Source: Oscillospiraceae bacterium
GTDB taxonomy: Bacteria; Bacillota; Clostridia; Oscillospirales; Oscillospiraceae
Direction of reading: 5' to 3'
DNA length: 64,000 nucleotides
NCBI GenBank assembly: GCA_963628785.1
Contig: CAVGGQ010000001.1
Location: forward strand, 23,969-87,968
Every line of letters starts with the position of its first letter. Position 1 is the first letter of the stretch. Made by a program: the position numbers and the translations under genes. Under the pieces are notes generated by a model that had not been told where the DNA came from, made no database searches, and was given only the letters and a program-made list of their open reading frames with translations. Shown in pieces: positions 9,724 through 57,419 of this stretch.

Positions 9724-9915
9724 ATGCGTAAAGTTCTGAAAGTATTCGGCAAGATCGCCGCTATTCTGGCCGGCATCTATGCTCTGCTGTTCGCAGTGTT
9801 CTACTTCGACCTCGACGGCAAGCTGCTCTACTATGTCGTAGAGCCGTTCCTCGTAAAGCACTACGACAATATGCCCCGCGAAGACGTCACCAAGCGAGCC
9901 TACAAAATCAAGTAA
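9724..9915 (+). CDS. 63-aa single-TM peptide, paralogue of 5983-6150
   Basis: MRKVLKVFGKIAAILAGIYALLFAVFYFDLDGKLLYY.. A GAGGGAGG SD lies upstream. It sits directly after the alpha-2 gene. Confidence 0.65.
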   Translation: MRKVLKVFGKIAAILAGIYALLFAVFYFDLDGKLLYYVVEPFLVKHYDNMPREDVTKRAYKIK

Positions 9916-9921
9916 ATTTAA

Positions 9922-10080
9922 GGCAACACCGCACAATGTCGTCTGCGGCGCTTTGCGGATCTTTTTCGCCGACTCTGCGTCATCAAGCCTTGCCATACAC
10001 AAAGTATGGCTGCGGCTATCTTCCTTGATTCGACGAATAATCTTTCGCAAATCGCACTTGCCGAATTATGCGGTGTTGCC
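9922..10080 (+). repeat. MITE-like intergenic repeat, copy A (long form, about 159 bp) with 16-bp imperfect terminal inverted repeats
   Basis: The left end is GGCAACACCGCACAATGTCGTCTGCGGCGCTTT and the right end is AAATCGCACTTGCCGAATTATGCGGTGTTGCC. It aligns end to end with 54837-54996 and shares the centre CCTTGC-ATACACAAAGTAT-GCTGCG. Confidence 0.8.
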
Positions 10081-10096
10081 TAAAGCCAATCAATAC

Positions 10097-10136
10097 CAAA
10101 AGCGGCGCAGTCCCAACCGACTGCGCCGCTTGTTTC
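10097..10136. terminator. Bidirectional rho-independent terminator
   Basis: Stem GCGGCGCAGT (10102-10111) pairs with ACTGCGCCGC (10120-10129). It is flanked by AAAA on the left and TTGTTT on the right, between convergent operons. Confidence 0.7.
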
Positions 10137-18485: not shown

Positions 18486-18492
18486 GCATTAT

Positions 18493-18528
18493 GGCAAAGC
18501 ACCGCACAACATTGTCTGCGGTGCTGCC
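18493..18528. repeat. Solo hairpin module related to the left arm of the MITE-like repeat
   Basis: GGCAAAGCACCGCACAACATTGTCTGCGGTGCTGCC compares with the repeat arm GGCAACACCGCACAATGTCGTCTGCGGC. It has a perfect 8-bp stem GCACCGCA/TGCGGTGC and abuts the stop codon at 18529. Confidence 0.55.
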
Positions 18529-20409
18529 TTATCTTACATCGTAGATGGTGATGCCGCCGGAGGAAAAGATGACCGGGTAGTTTGCATCCAAATACTCCGT
18601 GATGACGCCGGTTAGGGCGCGCTCGTAATAGCCGATGTAGACAAAGTCGATGTTCTCACTCCCGCGGTTTGCTTCAAATACCCCGGCATCGGTGAGCATA
18701 CGGTCGGCGAGCTGCTGCTTGTCCGCATAATTCAGACCGTGATAATAGAGATAGGAGGCACTGCCGCACTCAATGTTTCGGCCGGTCAGCGTCGCTACGG
18801 CGTTGTCGTGGTTATCCTCCGTCAGGAATTTCGCGTCCGGTTCGGTGTTTTCCAGAATGTACTCCGCCGCTGCGACTTCGTCCGCGGAGAATAGCTCATA
18901 GCCATAGCGCGTTGTGCCGGACGCAGCTTCGCGTACGAGCGTAAACACTCCGGCATTGGAGGAGAGGAAGAGCGCAATGGCGAGCACAATGCTGCGCGCA
19001 GAAGCGCTTTCCAACTTCGAGAGCCAGGCACAGAGCGCATCGGCGCAAACGAAGCACGCGAAAGCGTAGGCAATATAGAGGAGCTTGTTGTTGTCATATA
19101 CATTCGGTTGGAAAACGACGATCTCGCACAGCACAAAAAAAAATATCGCACCCGAGAACGCTGCGCGCTGCTTGCGGGAGACAGAGAAAAAGGCAAACGG
19201 CGTCAGCACGAAAATAAACCCGACATTTTTCACCCAGAACCACAGCCACGGATACTGCCCGTTGTTCACCCAGTCGATGACGATGCGCAGAAAATGGTCG
19301 TTGCCGCCGACGGAACGGAGCGTCCAGATCAAAAGCTGCGGCACGGCCAGCAGCACGGCGGGAAGCCCGAAGCGGAGCCAGCCGGAGAGCCAATGCCAAG
19401 TGAGCTTATCGCGGATGGCGGAATATACGAGCCAGCTTGCCGCCATGAGGCCGAGCGCAAAATAAGAGTGCGTGTGTACCATCGGCAGAAGCCCACCGAG
19501 AATACCCGCAGGTAGGTAAAGACGCGTGTCACCGCGAAACACCGCGCGGAACAGGAGATACAAAACCGCAAAGAGCGCCGCCCAGCCGAAGAGCGTGGCG
19601 CGCTGCGGGAGCAGCATGTCGGCAATGACATTCACCCAGCGCATGCCTTTTTCGGTGAGGTTCGTCGGCGTTTTGTAAAAGCCGGAAATGAGGTCGGAGA
19701 ACGAATAATCCCCGTTCAGAAAATAGATCATGCCGAGCCCGCCGTTCAGGAAAAAGAAGAGAAAAGCAAGCACCGGCGCATATTTTCTGCGGCAGAACTC
19801 GCGGGCGAGAAACCACACGCCGCAGAATACCTGCGCAAACGCAAAGAACATCGGGATCATATAAGCCCACCGCAGCGGCGTACCGAGAAGGTAAAGGCTC
19901 GAGGAAACACTGTCACACAGGAATGGATAGCAGATCTGCGTACCCGGCAGGAGATTATACTCCGGCGGGAATGTCTGCTGCTCGGCAATGGATGTGATAA
20001 AGCTTAAGTGCATCGCCATGTCGCCGTAGGTGCACTGCCCGGTATAGAGCGCGCCGTCTGCATTCCGCAGCGTGTGCGAGAGAATAAGCACAACGGCGAG
20101 CACCATGAACGGGACAAAGAGATAGGGGAGAGGTCGGTCAATTTTACCGCTCTCTGCGCACACCGCACGCTCCCGCTTTGGATAGACCCACAGCACCTGC
20201 ACTGCAAGACCAATCATGGCAGCGCAAATGTGCGCTGCCGTTCCGAAACCCCACAGGAAGGCGAACGGCACCGGCACCCACATGGAAAGGAGCGTCCCCA
20301 TAACGCTGCCGAGCCAAAGCCGGACGGCAAGCCGCTTTTCCGGGAAAATGCGCTGCGAGATCGCCTCGCCCGCGCTCTGCCAAAGCATAAACAAAAGAAC
20401 TCCGAGCAT
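18529..20409 (-). CDS. Large polytopic membrane protein, probable GT-C-fold glycosyltransferase, with a C-terminal extracytoplasmic domain
   Basis: About 626 aa with 12 or more hydrophobic helices, then a roughly 150-aa soluble C-terminus. I prefer the ATG at 20409 (MLGVLLFMLW, AAGAGG SD) because a TATAAT box overlaps the track start. The family call is inference only. Confidence 0.5.
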   Translation of the reverse strand: MLGVLLFMLWQSAGEAISQRIFPEKRLAVRLWLGSVMGTLLSMWVPVPFAFLWGFGTAAHICAAMIGLAVQVLWVYPKRERAVCAESGKIDRPLPYLFVPFMVLAVVLILSHTLRNADGALYTGQCTYGDMAMHLSFITSIAEQQTFPPEYNLLPGTQICYPFLCDSVSSSLYLLGTPLRWAYMIPMFFAFAQVFCGVWFLAREFCRRKYAPVLAFLFFFLNGGLGMIYFLNGDYSFSDLISGFYKTPTNLTEKGMRWVNVIADMLLPQRATLFGWAALFAVLYLLFRAVFRGDTRLYLPAGILGGLLPMVHTHSYFALGLMAASWLVYSAIRDKLTWHWLSGWLRFGLPAVLLAVPQLLIWTLRSVGGNDHFLRIVIDWVNNGQYPWLWFWVKNVGFIFVLTPFAFFSVSRKQRAAFSGAIFFFVLCEIVVFQPNVYDNNKLLYIAYAFACFVCADALCAWLSKLESASARSIVLAIALFLSSNAGVFTLVREAASGTTRYGYELFSADEVAAAEYILENTEPDAKFLTEDNHDNAVATLTGRNIECGSASYLYYHGLNYADKQQLADRMLTDAGVFEANRGSENIDFVYIGYYERALTGVITEYLDANYPVIFSSGGITIYDVR

Positions 20410-47028: not shown

Positions 47029-47097
47029 GATAATACCACATAATTCGGCAAGAGCGATTTCCACAAAGTGCCGCAGACGACATTGTTCGGTATTGCC
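47029..47097 (-). repeat. MITE-like repeat, copy B (short form: left and right arms only, inverted orientation)
   Basis: The reverse complement reads GGCAATACCGAACAATGTCGTCTGCGGCACTTTGTGGAAATCGCTCTTGCCGAATTATGTGGTATTATC. This equals the two arms of copies A and C without the roughly 90-bp centre. Confidence 0.75.
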
Positions 47098-54625: not shown

Positions 54626-54836
54626 GATAAGCTACGACCGCACCACCGCAGTTTCCGATTCCACCGGCTCGCATTGATCTTAATTTCCTTTTCTCCTTTT
54701 TTCTCCCTGCTCCGGCCAACCGCCGGAGCAGGGGAGACACCTATTCGATAATTCTCCGGAGGGAGAAGCACAACTGCAATGTATTCCAACATTGTTCCTC
54801 CTAAAATCCGGTTCTCCCTTCTTTCTTTTTATCCAA

Positions 54837-54996
54837 GGCAACACCGCACAATGTCGTCTGCGGCACTTTACGGAAATTTTGCTCCCGCATTTCGTTGCAT
54901 TTCCTTGCAATACACAAAGTATTGCTGCGTCAATGTGCCTCATTCGGAAGCAAAATTTGCTTGCAAATCGCTCTTGCCGAATTATGCGGTATTGCC
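54837..54996 (+). repeat. MITE-like repeat, copy C (long form, 160 bp)
   Basis: GGCAACACCGCACAATGTCGTCTGCGGCACTTTACGG ... AAATCGCTCTTGCCGAATTATGCGGTATTGCC. It is flanked by CCAA on both sides and ends 26 nt before the GH3 start codon. Confidence 0.8.
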
Positions 54997-55022
54997 CCAA
55001 ATTTTGATTCGAGGTTATTTTC

Positions 55023-57419
55023 ATGCAGTATGCAGACATTATTTCCCGCCTTACCCTTTGGGAAAAGGCCCGCCTTCTCTCCGGCAAAAGCAATTGGGAA
55101 ACATATGCAGTTCCCAGGGAGAGCATCCCGTCTGTATTCTGCTCCGACGGCCCCCACGGTCTGCGCAAGCAGAAAGGTGCCGCCGACCATTTGGGTCTGA
55201 ATGAAAGCGTAAAGGCGACCTGCTTCCCGACCGCTTCCTGCCTTGCTAACAGCTGGGACGAGGAGCTCCTTCGTGAAGTCGGTACGGCCATCGGCACGGA
55301 AGCCACTGCAGAGGATGTTGACATCCTGCTCGGCCCCGCGCTCAATACCAAACGAGATCCGCTCTGCGGACGCAACTTTGAATACTATTCCGAGGATGCT
55401 TACCTCGCGGGAAAACTCGCGGCAGCTTACATCCGCGGCTTGGAACATACGGGCACGACCGCATGCCCGAAGCACTTTGCGGCCAACTCACAGGAACTCG
55501 GACGCATGTACAGCGACTCCGTCGCCGATGACCGCACCCTGCACGAAGCCTACCTCACCGGCTTTGAGATCGCCGTAAAGGAAGGACACCCCGGTGCGAT
55601 CATGAGCTCCTATAATAAGATCAACGGCACCTACGCGAACGAAAACTCCCGGCTCCTCACGGAGGTGCTGCGCAAAAAGTGGGGCTTTGACGGTGCCGTG
55701 ATCACCGACTGGGGCGGCTCCAACGATATCGTCGCCGGCATCGCTGCGGGTTCAACGCTCGAAATGCCGGGCCCTGTGCTCGACAGTGCCGAGCGGCTCG
55801 TGCGCGCCGTCAGCTCCGGAAAGCTCTCCGAGGAAATAGTCAACAAGCGCGTGGACGAGCTTCTCACCATCGCGCTGCGCGAAAAGAAATCGGCCGAGCC
55901 GAAGTTTGAAGAGCATCACGCCCTTGCAAAAAAAGCGGCCTCCGAGGGCATCGTACTTTTGAAAAACGAAAATTCCCTTCTGCCGCTCTCTCTTGATAAA
56001 AAAATCGCCGTCATCGGCACCTTCGCCGAGACGCCGCGCTTCCAGGGCGCGGGCTCCAGCCTTGTAAACCCGACATTCATCGATAAACCGCTCGAATGTT
56101 ACCGTGCGGCGGGACTTTCTGTCATCGGCTATGCCGCCGGATGCCGCCGCGACGGAAAAGCGGACGAGAGGTTGCTCGCGGAAGCCGCCGCGCTCGCAAA
56201 GAAGGCGGACATCGTCCTTCTTCACATCGGTCTTCCCGAAGCGTTCGAGAGCGAAGGCCTTGACCGCACCACCATGGCGCTCCCCGAAAATCAGCTCGAG
56301 CTTTGGGGAACTGTCCTGAACGCGAACCCGAACACCGTCGTCATCCTTTCCGCCGGTTCTCCGGTAGAACTTCCCCTGACCGATGCGACTCCCGCCATCG
56401 TACAGGCGTATCTTTACGGTCAGGCGGGCGCAGCCGCCATGGCCGATATTCTTACGGGAAATATCTCACCGTCCGGCAAGAGCGCGGAAACATATCCGAT
56501 GGCATGGGAAGATGTACCGGGTTATTCCGATTATCCGGCTCCCGGTGAGCACGCGCTCTACCGCGAGAGCCTGTTTATCGGCTATCGCTATTATGACACG
56601 GTCGACAAAGCCGTCCGCTTCCCGTTCGGCCACGGCCTGAGCTATACGACTTTCGCTTACTCCGACTTGGAGATCGCAAAGAACGCCGTGCGTTTCACCG
56701 TTACGAACACCGGAAAGTACGAGAGTGCGGAGATCGCGCAGCTCTATATCGGCAAGCCGGAGAGCAAGATTTTCCGCCCGAAAAAGGAAATCAAGGGCTT
56801 TGCCCGCCTCACCCTGAAACCCGGCGAGAGCCGTCGCACGGAGATCGCGTTTGACGACAAGTCGTTCCGCTACTTCAATGTGAAAACCGGAAAGTTTGAA
56901 GAAGAGGCCGGAACATACGAGCTTTATATCGGTGCCTCCTCCGTGGACATCCGCCTCGAGGGAACGATCGAGCGCACAGGCACAGATGCTCCCGCACCGT
57001 ACGACAAAGAAGCTTTGCCCTCGTATTTCTCCGGACATATCGAGAATGTGAGCGACGCGGAATTTGAATCACTTCTCGGCCACCCCACTCCGAATGAGCC
57101 GTTCGACCGCGAAGTTTTGTGGAACAGCCCGGTATCGAAGCTGGCCGACTGTAAAAGCGGCTTCTGCCGCATGATCGGGAAAATCTTGAAGCGCAAAGTC
57201 GAAAATGCAAAAAAGCCCGACTTGAATCTTCTCTTCGTCTATCGCCTGCCCATCCGCGGCATTCCCAAAATGATGGGAGCCTTTGTAAACATCCAAATGG
57301 CGGAAGGCATCCGTATGGCAGCCAACGGCCGCTTCTTCCGAGGCCTGGGACGGATCATTCGAGGCTTTTTCGCCGGACGGAAACAGCTGAAAGCATTGCA
57401 AAGTGACAGAAAGGCATGA
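55023..57419 (+). CDS. GH3 beta-glucosidase (intact, canonical domain order, long C-terminal extension)
   Basis: 798 aa. Motifs: SDGPHGLRKQ, FEYYSEDAYLAG, KHFAANSQE, SSYNKINGTY, VITDWGG, NPNTVVIL, GYRYYD, PFGHGLSYTTF. Confidence 0.9.
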   Translation: MQYADIISRLTLWEKARLLSGKSNWETYAVPRESIPSVFCSDGPHGLRKQKGAADHLGLNESVKATCFPTASCLANSWDEELLREVGTAIGTEATAEDVDILLGPALNTKRDPLCGRNFEYYSEDAYLAGKLAAAYIRGLEHTGTTACPKHFAANSQELGRMYSDSVADDRTLHEAYLTGFEIAVKEGHPGAIMSSYNKINGTYANENSRLLTEVLRKKWGFDGAVITDWGGSNDIVAGIAAGSTLEMPGPVLDSAERLVRAVSSGKLSEEIVNKRVDELLTIALREKKSAEPKFEEHHALAKKAASEGIVLLKNENSLLPLSLDKKIAVIGTFAETPRFQGAGSSLVNPTFIDKPLECYRAAGLSVIGYAAGCRRDGKADERLLAEAAALAKKADIVLLHIGLPEAFESEGLDRTTMALPENQLELWGTVLNANPNTVVILSAGSPVELPLTDATPAIVQAYLYGQAGAAAMADILTGNISPSGKSAETYPMAWEDVPGYSDYPAPGEHALYRESLFIGYRYYDTVDKAVRFPFGHGLSYTTFAYSDLEIAKNAVRFTVTNTGKYESAEIAQLYIGKPESKIFRPKKEIKGFARLTLKPGESRRTEIAFDDKSFRYFNVKTGKFEEEAGTYELYIGASSVDIRLEGTIERTGTDAPAPYDKEALPSYFSGHIENVSDAEFESLLGHPTPNEPFDREVLWNSPVSKLADCKSGFCRMIGKILKRKVENAKKPDLNLLFVYRLPIRGIPKMMGAFVNIQMAEGIRMAANGRFFRGLGRIIRGFFAGRKQLKALQSDRKA

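What the first reader, a model, noticed from the sequence alone, without database searches (positions are those of the whole stretch)
9922..10080. Undescribed-looking 160-bp MITE-like intergenic repeat family with 16-bp terminal inverted repeats
Seen:
- Copy A (9922-10080) and copy C (54837-54996) align end to end. Their roughly 40-bp arms are near-identical and they share a central box (CCTTGC-ATACACAAAGTAT-GCTGCG).
- The two ends are inverted repeats of each other (GGCAAYACCGCAYAAT).
- Copy C is flanked by CCAA on both sides, and copy A by TAA/TAAA. These may be short target duplications.
- A short arms-only derivative lies at 47029-47097, and a solo arm-like hairpin lies at 18493-18528.
- The left arm contains a stem (CCGCA..TGCGG; 8 bp in the solo copy).
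- No transposase is present in the window.

Inference: this is a non-autonomous mobile element or a REP-like structured repeat, possibly with regulatory or sRNA potential.
Basis: seen in the sequence. Interest (0 to 1): 0.6.

Follow-up and report, generated by a model that had tools for sequence, protein, structure and literature searches.

The report
IS5-driven hairpin MITE family, gut Oscillospiraceae
The repeat is a real, very abundant miniature non-coding transposon (MITE) of an uncultured gut Oscillospiraceae bacterium that borrows the transposase of an IS5-family insertion sequence. That is an ordinary kind of element, but it comes in sizes down to 34 bp and carries a hairpin core that also occurs between other, unrelated inverted-repeat ends.

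Summary
Copies A (9922-10080) and C (54837-54996) belong to a family with about 160 BLAST loci in the 2.08-Mb assembly. I verified 98 paired elements: about 45 of 146-165 bp, 23 of about 82 bp, 11 of 41-70 bp, and 13 or more of 34 bp.

- **Ends:** the ends are GGCAAYACCGCAYAAT inverted repeats.
- **Duplications:** perfect 4-bp duplications flank 29 of 48 candidate pairs of full length (three of them false or non-family); the consensus is T-T-A-A/G.
- **Partner:** the same ends and the same 4-bp duplications bound a 1,130-1,134-bp IS5-family insertion sequence in related genomes. It encodes a 325-aa transposase (NCBIfam transpos_IS5_4, 320 bits).
- **In this genome:** only a 152-bp deletion derivative and a 55-nt contig-end stub of that IS are assembled.
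- **Mobility:** sister species show filled versus empty sites.
- **Excluded:** Rfam gives no match, and a REP/RAYT origin is rejected.

The verdict is a new member of a known kind. This scan has noted similar IS5-type MITEs in gut Oscillospiraceae before, on other DNA.

Three extras are not fully explained:
- The 34-bp elements carry target duplications.
- The roughly 128-nt hairpin core recurs in gut metagenomes between unrelated end sequences and in 99-nt tandem arrays.
- One strand consistently folds better, yet insertions show no orientation bias to genes.

The genome search and the look-up of sequencing runs closed mid-session.

The parts
9922..10080 (+). Full-length MITE, subfamily A (159 bp). 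The left end carries the hairpin module and the right end is GAATTATGCGGTGTTGCC.
   Evidence: It folds as one rod hairpin: DNA -37.1 kcal/mol, z -5.6.
9918..9921 (.). Left target-site duplication of copy A (TTAA). Its partner is TAAA at 10081-10084 (3 of 4 match). The element starts 6 nt after the TAA stop codon (9913-9915) of the 63-aa ORF.
9988..10015 (+). Apical box CCTTGCCATACACAAAGTATGGCTGCGG of copy A: a 6-7 bp stem with an ACAAA loop.
54837..54996 (+). Full-length MITE, subfamily C (160 bp). It ends 26 nt before the ATG of a GH3-like gene.
54833..54836 (.). Left copy of the perfect 4-bp target duplication CCAA of copy C. The right copy is at 54997-55000.
47029..47097 (-). A 69-bp internally deleted derivative with arms only. 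Its left end is degenerate (GATAATACCACATAAT) and its flanks are TAAA/TGAA.
18493..18528 (+). A 36-bp 'nano' element: a 12-14 bp end, a 10-nt loop and a 12-bp end. It has a perfect TTAT/TTAT duplication (18489-18492 and 18529-18532).
   Evidence: DNA hairpin -11.8 kcal/mol, z -3.4. The class is supported genome-wide.

Best explanation

**Structure (shown).** Each copy is a non-coding, rod-like imperfect palindrome bounded by 12-16 bp terminal inverted repeats, GGCAAYACCGCAYAAT.

**Mechanism (inferred).** A DDE transposase of an IS5-family (IS5-group) insertion sequence with the same ends is supplied in trans. It binds the two ends, excises or copies the element, and inserts it at T-T-A-A/G-like tetranucleotides. 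Staggered cuts there give a 4-bp duplication. Such AT-rich targets are rare inside the 58% G+C genes. Insertions therefore accumulate in intergenic DNA, very often directly at or after TAA stop codons.

**Size classes (inferred).** Internal deletion, plus use of a fortuitous internal end-like sequence (TGCGGCGCT...) near the left end, produced a ladder of still-mobile sizes: 160, 117, 82, 54 and 34 bp.

**Status of the evidence.** Shown: repeats, ends, duplications, target bias, empty sites, and a partner IS with identical ends and duplication length. Inferred: that this transposase actually mobilises the elements, and that they are still active in this genome.
For: - **Copy number:** 160 BLAST loci and 98 verified paired elements covering 0.54% of the genome.
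- **Duplications:** a perfect 4-bp duplication flanks 29 of 48 full-length pairs, three of which were later found not to be family members (C48, C74, C12); about 0.4% is expected by chance. Position-wise the consensus is T/T/A/A-or-G.
- **Partner IS:** the IS is 1,130-1,134 bp with ends GGCAACACCGCACAA... and duplications TTAG/TTAG and TTAA/TTAA (L048, L057, L069).
- **Transposase:** it scores 320 bits on NCBIfam transpos_IS5_4 (cut-off 140) and matches Pfam DDE_Tnp_1 plus DUF772. It is about 45% identical to annotated IS5-family transposases.
- **Remnants in this genome:** a 152-bp derivative keeps the IS left end, a promoter-like TATAAT and the first 27 codons, flanked by TTAA/TTAA (C12:16281-16432). 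The same 55 nt sit at the end of contig C40.
- **Filled versus empty sites:** G018 is filled where G000 C6 is empty. G002, G010 and G015 are filled where G000 C91 is empty.
- **Position:** 80 of 98 elements are intergenic, and 12 distances to a gene's 3' end are exactly 0.
- **Cultured relative:** Vescimonas fastidiosa carries a 74-bp member with TTAA/TTAA right after the truA stop codon.
Against: - No intact copy of the partner IS is assembled in this genome: PF01609 and tblastn both find nothing. Current activity here is therefore unproven. The assembly has 138 contigs, and 23 of 276 contig ends carry the element, so multi-copy IS copies may simply be unassembled.
- The duplicated tetranucleotides are looser than the classical IS5 YTAR target.
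- MITE interiors show no similarity to the IS interior, so descent from this IS by simple deletion is not shown. Only the ends are shared.
- Transposition has not been tested experimentally.
Confidence: 0.9

Rival explanations
1. The conserved hairpin core is the real functional or mobile unit: a strand-specific structured DNA or RNA module. The IS5-type ends would be only one of several 'coats' that let it spread. The element would then be a chimera of two systems rather than a plain MITE.
For:
- Interiors of elements with unrelated ends are 71-73% identical to subfamily C, z 7.5-9. That is as close as subfamilies A and C are to each other. The ends in question are GAGGCACTGCCGAGCGATAC and GGAAGAGCCAATATCCCAACT.
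- A 160-161 bp family with GGCCWTGTTTGAAAA ends and TA flanks, at 10 distinct loci, shares part of the core.
- The core also occurs without recognisable ends, and as 99-nt tandem arrays between rsmH and an ftsL-like gene.
- The helix under the apical hairpin covaries: 7 of 12 pairs show double changes.
- The strand complementary to the box folds 12-22 kcal/mol better in 11 of 12 element types.
Against: - In this genome all 64 cores lie inside GGCAAC-ended elements.
- The T5 and T6 end types were each seen at a single locus, so their mobility is unproven.
- There is no orientation bias to genes: 26 versus 18, p = 0.29, and 33 versus 21.
- Rfam gives no match.
- Covariation in palindromes can arise from template-switch correction rather than selection. 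Such corrections are visible.
- The element types share ancestry, so the strand asymmetry is not 11 independent observations.
Confidence: 0.3
2. The repeat is mainly a host-useful RNA element transcribed with neighbouring genes, such as a 3'-UTR stabiliser, an RNase III site, a terminator or a small RNA. ERIC, REP, Correia and bcr1 have been proposed to act this way.
For: - Many copies lie 0-10 nt after stop codons, and full-length copies are enriched between convergent genes: 15 of 32 classified, against 15% of intergenic spaces.
- Rod hairpins are predicted at -67 to -86 kcal/mol as RNA.
- One strand folds better in 43 of 48 full copies.
- bcr1 sets a precedent for a transcribed MITE-like repeat with compensatory changes (PMC3184786).
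Against: - Orientation relative to the upstream gene is random.
- The position after stop codons is explained by the AT-rich target preference.
- No promoter consensus was found. The only terminator-like match inside an element was one weak stem in the left arm of copy A (9941-9960).
- There is no Rfam match.
Confidence: 0.1
3. The repeat is a REP/REPIN-type element spread by a RAYT (HUH tyrosine transposase).
For: - Short GC-rich hairpins of 34 nt occur singly, and inverted arms make REPIN-like doublets.
- A Y1_Tnp fragment lies at the end of contig C53.
Against: - Clear 4-bp target duplications are present, which HUH transposition does not make.
- The Y1_Tnp fragment reads like an ordinary IS200 TnpA N-terminus (reading from memory, not tested), and I saw no family repeat in the 398 bases read around it.
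- There is no conserved GTAG-type head.
- The ends are identical to those of a DDE IS.
Confidence: 0.02

Closest known systems
IS5 group of the IS5 family (E. coli IS5, ISKpn26 and relatives) and MITEs that use their transposases
   Same: - The IS is about 1.1-1.2 kb with roughly 16-bp inverted repeats starting GG.
- It has a single transposase of about 325 aa with DDE_Tnp_1 plus DUF772 domains.
- It makes a 4-bp target duplication at an AT-rich tetranucleotide related to YTAR.
- The MITE shares only the ends with the IS.
   Different: - The transposase is only about 45% identical to annotated IS5-family proteins.
- The target is looser (TTAA, TAAA, TTAT, TTTG, CTTG and others).
- The host is a gut Oscillospiraceae bacterium.
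- I could not query ISfinder, so I do not know whether this particular IS has a name.
Correia elements (CREE/NEMIS) of Neisseria, and ERIC of enterobacteria
   Same: - All are MITEs of 100-160 bp with more than 100 copies.
- All form long imperfect palindromes and sit in intergenic DNA.
- All have full-length and internally deleted size classes.
   Different: - There is no sequence similarity, and no match in 5,426 E. coli genomes.
- The duplication here is 4 bp, against TA for Correia.
- A partner IS is identified here.
bcr1 repeat of the Bacillus cereus group (about 155 bp; PMC3184786)
   Same: - Both occur in Firmicutes and are about 155-160 bp.
- Both have short direct-repeat flanks and are distributed differently between close relatives.
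- Both keep a fold through compensatory changes.
   Different: - bcr1 has 5-bp duplications and a two-hairpin cruciform.
- The two are unrelated in sequence.
- bcr1 transcription is shown. Here it is untested.
REP/REPIN elements with RAYT transposases
   Same: - Both include hairpin units of about 34 nt, singly and as inverted doublets.
- Both are enriched between convergent genes.
   Different: - REPs make no target duplication and depend on HUH transposases.
- Here duplications are present and the ends equal those of a DDE IS.

Membership tests
MITE (miniature inverted-repeat transposable element) | Small size (under about 500 bp) and no coding capacity | tested here: met
   Elements are 34-161 bp. 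The two subfamilies differ by indels and no ORF is conserved.
MITE (miniature inverted-repeat transposable element) | Terminal inverted repeats | tested here: met
   The ends GGCAAYACCGCAYAAT are present at both ends. They are 93-98% conserved across copies.
MITE (miniature inverted-repeat transposable element) | Target-site duplications of fixed length | tested here: met
   A perfect 4-bp duplication flanks 29 of 48 full-length pairs, three of which are false or non-family (C48, C74, C12), and 49 of 98 verified elements. The background rate is 0.4%.
MITE (miniature inverted-repeat transposable element) | Multiple dispersed copies, with presence/absence differences between relatives | tested here: met
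   There are 160 loci. Empty sites are seen at G000 C6 and C91 where G018, G002, G010 and G015 are filled.
MITE (miniature inverted-repeat transposable element) | An autonomous element with matching ends that supplies the transposase | tested here: met
   An IS5-family IS with the same ends and the same duplication length is found in L048, L057 and L069. Only remnants of it occur in this genome. Mobilisation itself was not tested.
IS5 family, IS5 group (partner IS) | DDE transposase matching the curated IS5 model | tested here: met
   NF033581 transpos_IS5_4 scores 320.4 bits against a cut-off of 140. PF01609 and PF05598 also match.
IS5 family, IS5 group (partner IS) | 4-bp duplication at a YTAR-like target | tested here: met
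   IS copies show TTAG/TTAG and TTAA/TTAA. The MITE consensus is T-T-A-A/G, but looser than YTAR.
REP/RAYT system | No target duplication, and a RAYT gene flanked by the repeats | tested here: not met
   Duplications are present. The only Y1_Tnp hit is a contig-end fragment; I read it as IS200-like from memory and saw no family repeat in the 398 bases read around it.
Any Rfam RNA family | Score at or above the family's gathering threshold | tested here: not met
   The window gives 0 matches at gathering thresholds. The best E-value hit on copy C is Flavo-1 at 14.7 bits, against 42 needed.
ERIC / enterobacterial repeats | Sequence similarity to ERIC copies in E. coli genomes | tested here: not met
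   blastn of copy A against 5,426 E. coli genomes gives no match at E <= 1.

The most novel reading that the evidence does not exclude
The roughly 128-nt rod hairpin core runs GTCTGCGG...CTTGCMATACACAAAGTATKGC...CTCTTGCC. It may be an independent, strand-specific module of gut Oscillospiraceae that has been packaged repeatedly between the ends of unrelated transposons. Those ends include IS5-type ends with 4-bp duplications, GGCCWTGTTTGAAAA ends with TA flanks, and several others. The core also persists naked and in 99-nt tandem arrays. Its invariant apical box would then be a recognition site for a host or mobile-element protein, or part of an RNA. The MITE in this window would be a carrier rather than the whole story.
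Probability: 0.3. Interest if true: 0.6.

Novelty: new member of a known kind. Interest (0 to 1): 0.38.

Why it matters
**For annotation.**
- The family explains about 100-160 unannotated intergenic hairpins in a small gut genome.
- It also explains much of the assembly fragmentation: 23 of 276 contig ends carry the element.
- It warns against reading these hairpins as terminators, riboswitches or small RNAs.

**For biology.**
- It is a dense case, about one element per 13-20 kb, of IS5-driven MITE expansion in Oscillospiraceae, a dominant but poorly studied gut group.
- Members exist in a cultured species, Vescimonas fastidiosa, so experiments are possible.
- The 34-bp elements with target duplications suggest that 12 bp at each end may be enough for this transposase. 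That would be a compact substrate for studying IS5 transposition.
- If the shared-core reading holds, it would show modular exchange of a conserved hairpin cargo between unrelated transposon ends.

Tried and rejected
- **Rfam:** gathering thresholds on the whole window and an E-value scan on copy C found nothing meaningful.
- **REP/RAYT:** rejected because of the target duplications. The single Y1_Tnp fragment reads like IS200 (from memory) and I saw no family repeat in the 398 bases read around it.
- **Transposase in this genome:** PF01609 and tblastn found only the 27-codon remnant.
- **Candidate full-length elements:** pairs of ends 0.7-3 kb apart in G000 are just neighbouring MITEs.
- **ERIC-like origin:** no match in E. 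coli genomes.
- **Phage carriage:** no match among 50,697 phage records.
- **Plasmid relatives of the IS:** at DNA level only distant proteobacterial IS5 fragments matched.
- **Promoter or terminator in the element:** no promoter consensus. One weak terminator-like stem lies in the left arm of subfamily A.
- **Orientation bias to genes:** none.
- **Literature:** searches for the end and box sequences and for MITEs in Oscillospiraceae, Faecalibacterium or Vescimonas found no description.
- **The look-up of encoding contigs:** a window protein had no record.

Full report
**Observation.**
- Copy A (9922-10080, 159 bp) and copy C (54837-54996, 160 bp) are collinear.
- They share near-identical ends and a central box (CCTTGCMATACACAAAGTATKGCTGCG) and differ in the arms between.
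- The 16-bp end GGCAAYACCGCAYAAT occurs six times in the window, in three inward-facing pairs. The chance expectation is 1.72, and no shuffle out of 100 reached six.
- Copy C has a perfect CCAA/CCAA flank. Copy A has TTAA/TAAA.
- The 69-bp piece at 47029-47097 is an arms-only derivative with one degenerate end.
- The 'solo hairpin' at 18493-18528 is a complete 36-bp element. It has two 12-14 bp ends around a 10-nt loop and a perfect TTAT/TTAT duplication.

**Family size.**
- The window lies in a 2.08-Mb, 138-contig, 58% G+C assembly.
- BLAST with copies A and C finds 160 loci.
- The 31-nt left-end module GGCAACACCGCACAATGTCGTCTGCGGCGCT occurs about 130 times.
- Pairing inward-facing ends gives 98 verified elements, 0.54% of the genome.
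- The size classes are about 45 of 146-165 bp, 23 of 71-95 bp, 11 of 41-70 bp and 13 or more of about 34 bp, with a few of 102-139 bp.
- Full-length copies fall into subfamilies A and C (19 and 26 copies). Each is about 94-95% identical to its consensus.
- Twenty-three of 276 contig ends carry the element, so it breaks the assembly.

**Target duplications and target choice.**
- A perfect 4-bp direct repeat flanks 29 of the 48 candidate pairs of full length (three of which, C48, C74 and C12, proved false or non-family) and 49 of all 98 verified elements. Random positions give 0.4%.
- The duplicated tetranucleotides are AT-rich: TTAA 8, TAAA 7, TTTG 5, TTAT 5, TTTA 5, CTTG 3 and others. The position-wise consensus is T-T-A-A/G.
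- With a simple codon-usage gene caller, 80 of 98 elements are intergenic. The median distance to a gene's 3' end is 21 nt, and 12 distances are exactly zero.
- Full-length copies are enriched between convergent genes: 15 of 32 classified, against about 15% of intergenic spaces.
- This pattern follows from the target preference. In a 58% G+C genome, TAA stop codons and their surroundings supply the targets.

**The partner.**
- Fixed-length duplications point to a DDE transposase.
- One atypical 152-bp element (C12:16281-16432, TTAA/TTAA) begins with the family end. It continues with a TATAAT box and an ORF start, MNKQMSMSALNDELSQVRTKKKEFL. The same 55 nt end contig C40.
- Searching related genomes with this piece, and all species genomes with a back-translated pattern, led to full copies. 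These are L069 (Oscillospiraceae bacterium C.6_5, 1,134 bp), L048 (1,130 bp, TTAG/TTAG) and L057 (TTAA/TTAA, frameshifted).
- Their inverted repeats begin GGCAACACCGCACAA, 15 of 16 identical to the MITE end.
- The 325-aa protein scores 320 bits on NCBIfam transpos_IS5_4 (cut-off 140). It carries DDE_Tnp_1 and DUF772 and is about 45% identical to annotated IS5-family transposases.
- IS length, inverted-repeat length, protein size and 4-bp duplication all fit the IS5 group. That comparison rests on established knowledge of the group.
- No transposase body is assembled in this genome. Given the fragmentation at repeats, that does not show absence.

**Mobility over evolutionary time.**
- A sister species (G018) has at least 22 matches, up to 98% identical.
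- Other species of the genus carry a third subfamily (G). It has the same ends and apical box but different arms, about 72% identical.
- A G018 copy sits where G000 (C6:33650) has none.
- G002, G010 and G015 share a copy at a site that is empty in G000 (C91).
- At C32, G000 and G003 carry independent insertions in the same spacer.
- A cultured relative, Vescimonas fastidiosa MM35, has a 74-bp member with TTAA/TTAA directly after the truA stop codon. This places the family in named Oscillospiraceae.

**Structure.**
- All three subfamilies fold into one long rod, at -67 to -86 kcal/mol as RNA. Copy A as DNA gives -37 kcal/mol, z -5.6.
- The arms differ in sequence between subfamilies but stay complementary.
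- Five copies from both subfamilies have independently converted GGCTGCGG to GGC-AAGG. This makes the apical palindrome perfect. It is the signature expected of template-switch 'quasi-palindrome correction'. It suggests the hairpin forms in vivo as DNA, and it offers a non-selective route to apparent covariation.

**The 34-bp class.**
- A pattern of end, 8-12 nt and end finds 38 candidates, against one in the reversed genome.
- Seven have perfect 4-bp duplications and nine have 3-of-4 matches. Expectations are 0.4% and 4.5%.
- Most share the loop CAATGTCGTC, which is identical to the sequence after the left end of full-length copies.
- There the next bases (TGCGGCGCT) resemble the inverse of the end (TGCGGTGTTGCC).
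- I infer that these elements arose from the left end by use of this internal pseudo-end.
- I also infer that about 12 bp per end is enough for transposition.
- A few candidates with unrelated loops and T-runs may be ordinary terminators.

**Beyond the family (unexpected).**
- Hits from relatives that covered only the centre of the element led to a metagenome scan with the 22-nt apical box.
- The box sits in homologous cores of about 120-130 nt bounded by different inverted repeats:
  - relatives of the present end (GGGCAATACCACACGATT, TCGGCAATACCGCGCAATCGG);
  - GGCCWTGTTTGAAAA, as 160-161 bp elements at ten distinct loci, always with TA on both flanks;
  - GAGGCACTGCCGAGCGATAC;
  - GGAAGAGCCAATATCCCAACT;
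  - AGGGTGTCTCTGACAAATC;
  - AGTAAMCG-type ends;
  - a perfect 22-bp pair in L035.
- With ends and the search box excluded, the interiors of the GAGGCAC and GGAAGAG elements are 71-73% identical to subfamily C (z 7.5-9). That is as close as A is to C.
- The core boundaries (GTCTGCGG... and ...CTCTTGCC) coincide in four end types.
- The core also occurs without recognisable ends, and as 1-4 tandem 99-nt units between rsmH and an ftsL-like gene.
- A helix just below the apical hairpin covaries across 27 diverse cores: 7 of 12 pairs show double changes.
- The strand complementary to the box folds 12-22 kcal/mol better, with more G-U pairs, in 11 of 12 element types and in 43 of 48 full copies here.
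- Orientation to genes is nonetheless unbiased: 26 versus 18, p = 0.29, and 33 versus 21 in metagenome loci.
- In this genome every one of the 64 cores lies inside a GGCAAC-ended element.
- I cannot decide between two readings. One is a very old MITE whose ends were re-tooled for different transposases. The other is a discrete hairpin cargo with its own function.
- The single-locus end types and the shared ancestry of the element types limit the inference.

**Comparison and novelty.**
- The element meets every defining feature of a MITE, and its partner meets those of the IS5 group.
- It matches no Rfam family, nothing in E. coli genomes and nothing in phage records.
- I found no paper describing it.
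- Reviews document comparable copy numbers and size heterogeneity for other MITEs (PMC10969869). They also document fold-preserving changes in bcr1 (PMC3184786).
- Earlier notes of this scan record similar IS5-type hairpin MITEs in gut Oscillospiraceae, and a TGTTTGAAAAATG-ended family, on other DNA. I treated those notes as leads only.
- The verdict is a new member of a known kind. The open side question is the shared, strand-asymmetric core.

Noticed in passing
G000 contig C12:16281-16432 (outside the window): The 152-bp derivative of the partner IS ends in a 27-nt back-to-back pair of ends, GGCAACACCGCA-TTA-TGCGGTGTTGCC. Two termini are separated by only 3 nt, like an even smaller element or an end-to-end junction.
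   Followed up: partly
G000 copies C15:21866, C90:2024, C112:2206 (subfamily A) and C66:1335, C119:666 (subfamily C): The same change, GGCTGCGG to GGC-AAGG, makes the apical palindrome perfect. It arose independently in both subfamilies and looks like quasi-palindrome template-switch correction.
   Followed up: partly
Metagenome loci L123:4187-4406, L131:8547-8766, L133, L114, L087: The hairpin core forms 99-nt (about 102-nt in L087) head-to-tail tandem arrays of 2-4 units. In L123 and in the single-unit loci L099 and L079 it lies between rsmH and an ftsL-like gene (MANYRHGATYGSLAYDLDAL...); the array in L087 lies elsewhere, and L131, L133 and L114 were not checked. The unit number differs between samples.
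   Followed up: partly
Metagenome loci L074, L080, L084, L111, L115, L142, L165, L174, L179: A second MITE family of 160-161 bp has ends GGCCWTGTTTGAAAA and TA on both flanks. It carries a related core. No partner transposase was identified.
   Followed up: partly
G000 contig C53:13606-13695 (contig end): This is the N-terminal fragment of an IS200/IS605-type Y1 transposase, cut by the contig end. I saw no MITE-family repeat in the 398 bases read around it.
   Followed up: partly
window 10100-10131: A strong bidirectional terminator-like hairpin (13 pairs) lies 20 nt beyond copy A. It sits between the small ORF and the convergent beta-glucosidase-like gene, so copy A lies inside the 3' untranslated region.
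   Followed up: no
window 54997-55023: Copy C ends 26 nt before the ATG of a GH3-like gene. No sigma-70 consensus was found in or next to the element, so that gene's promoter must lie upstream of, or read through, the 160-bp hairpin.
   Followed up: partly
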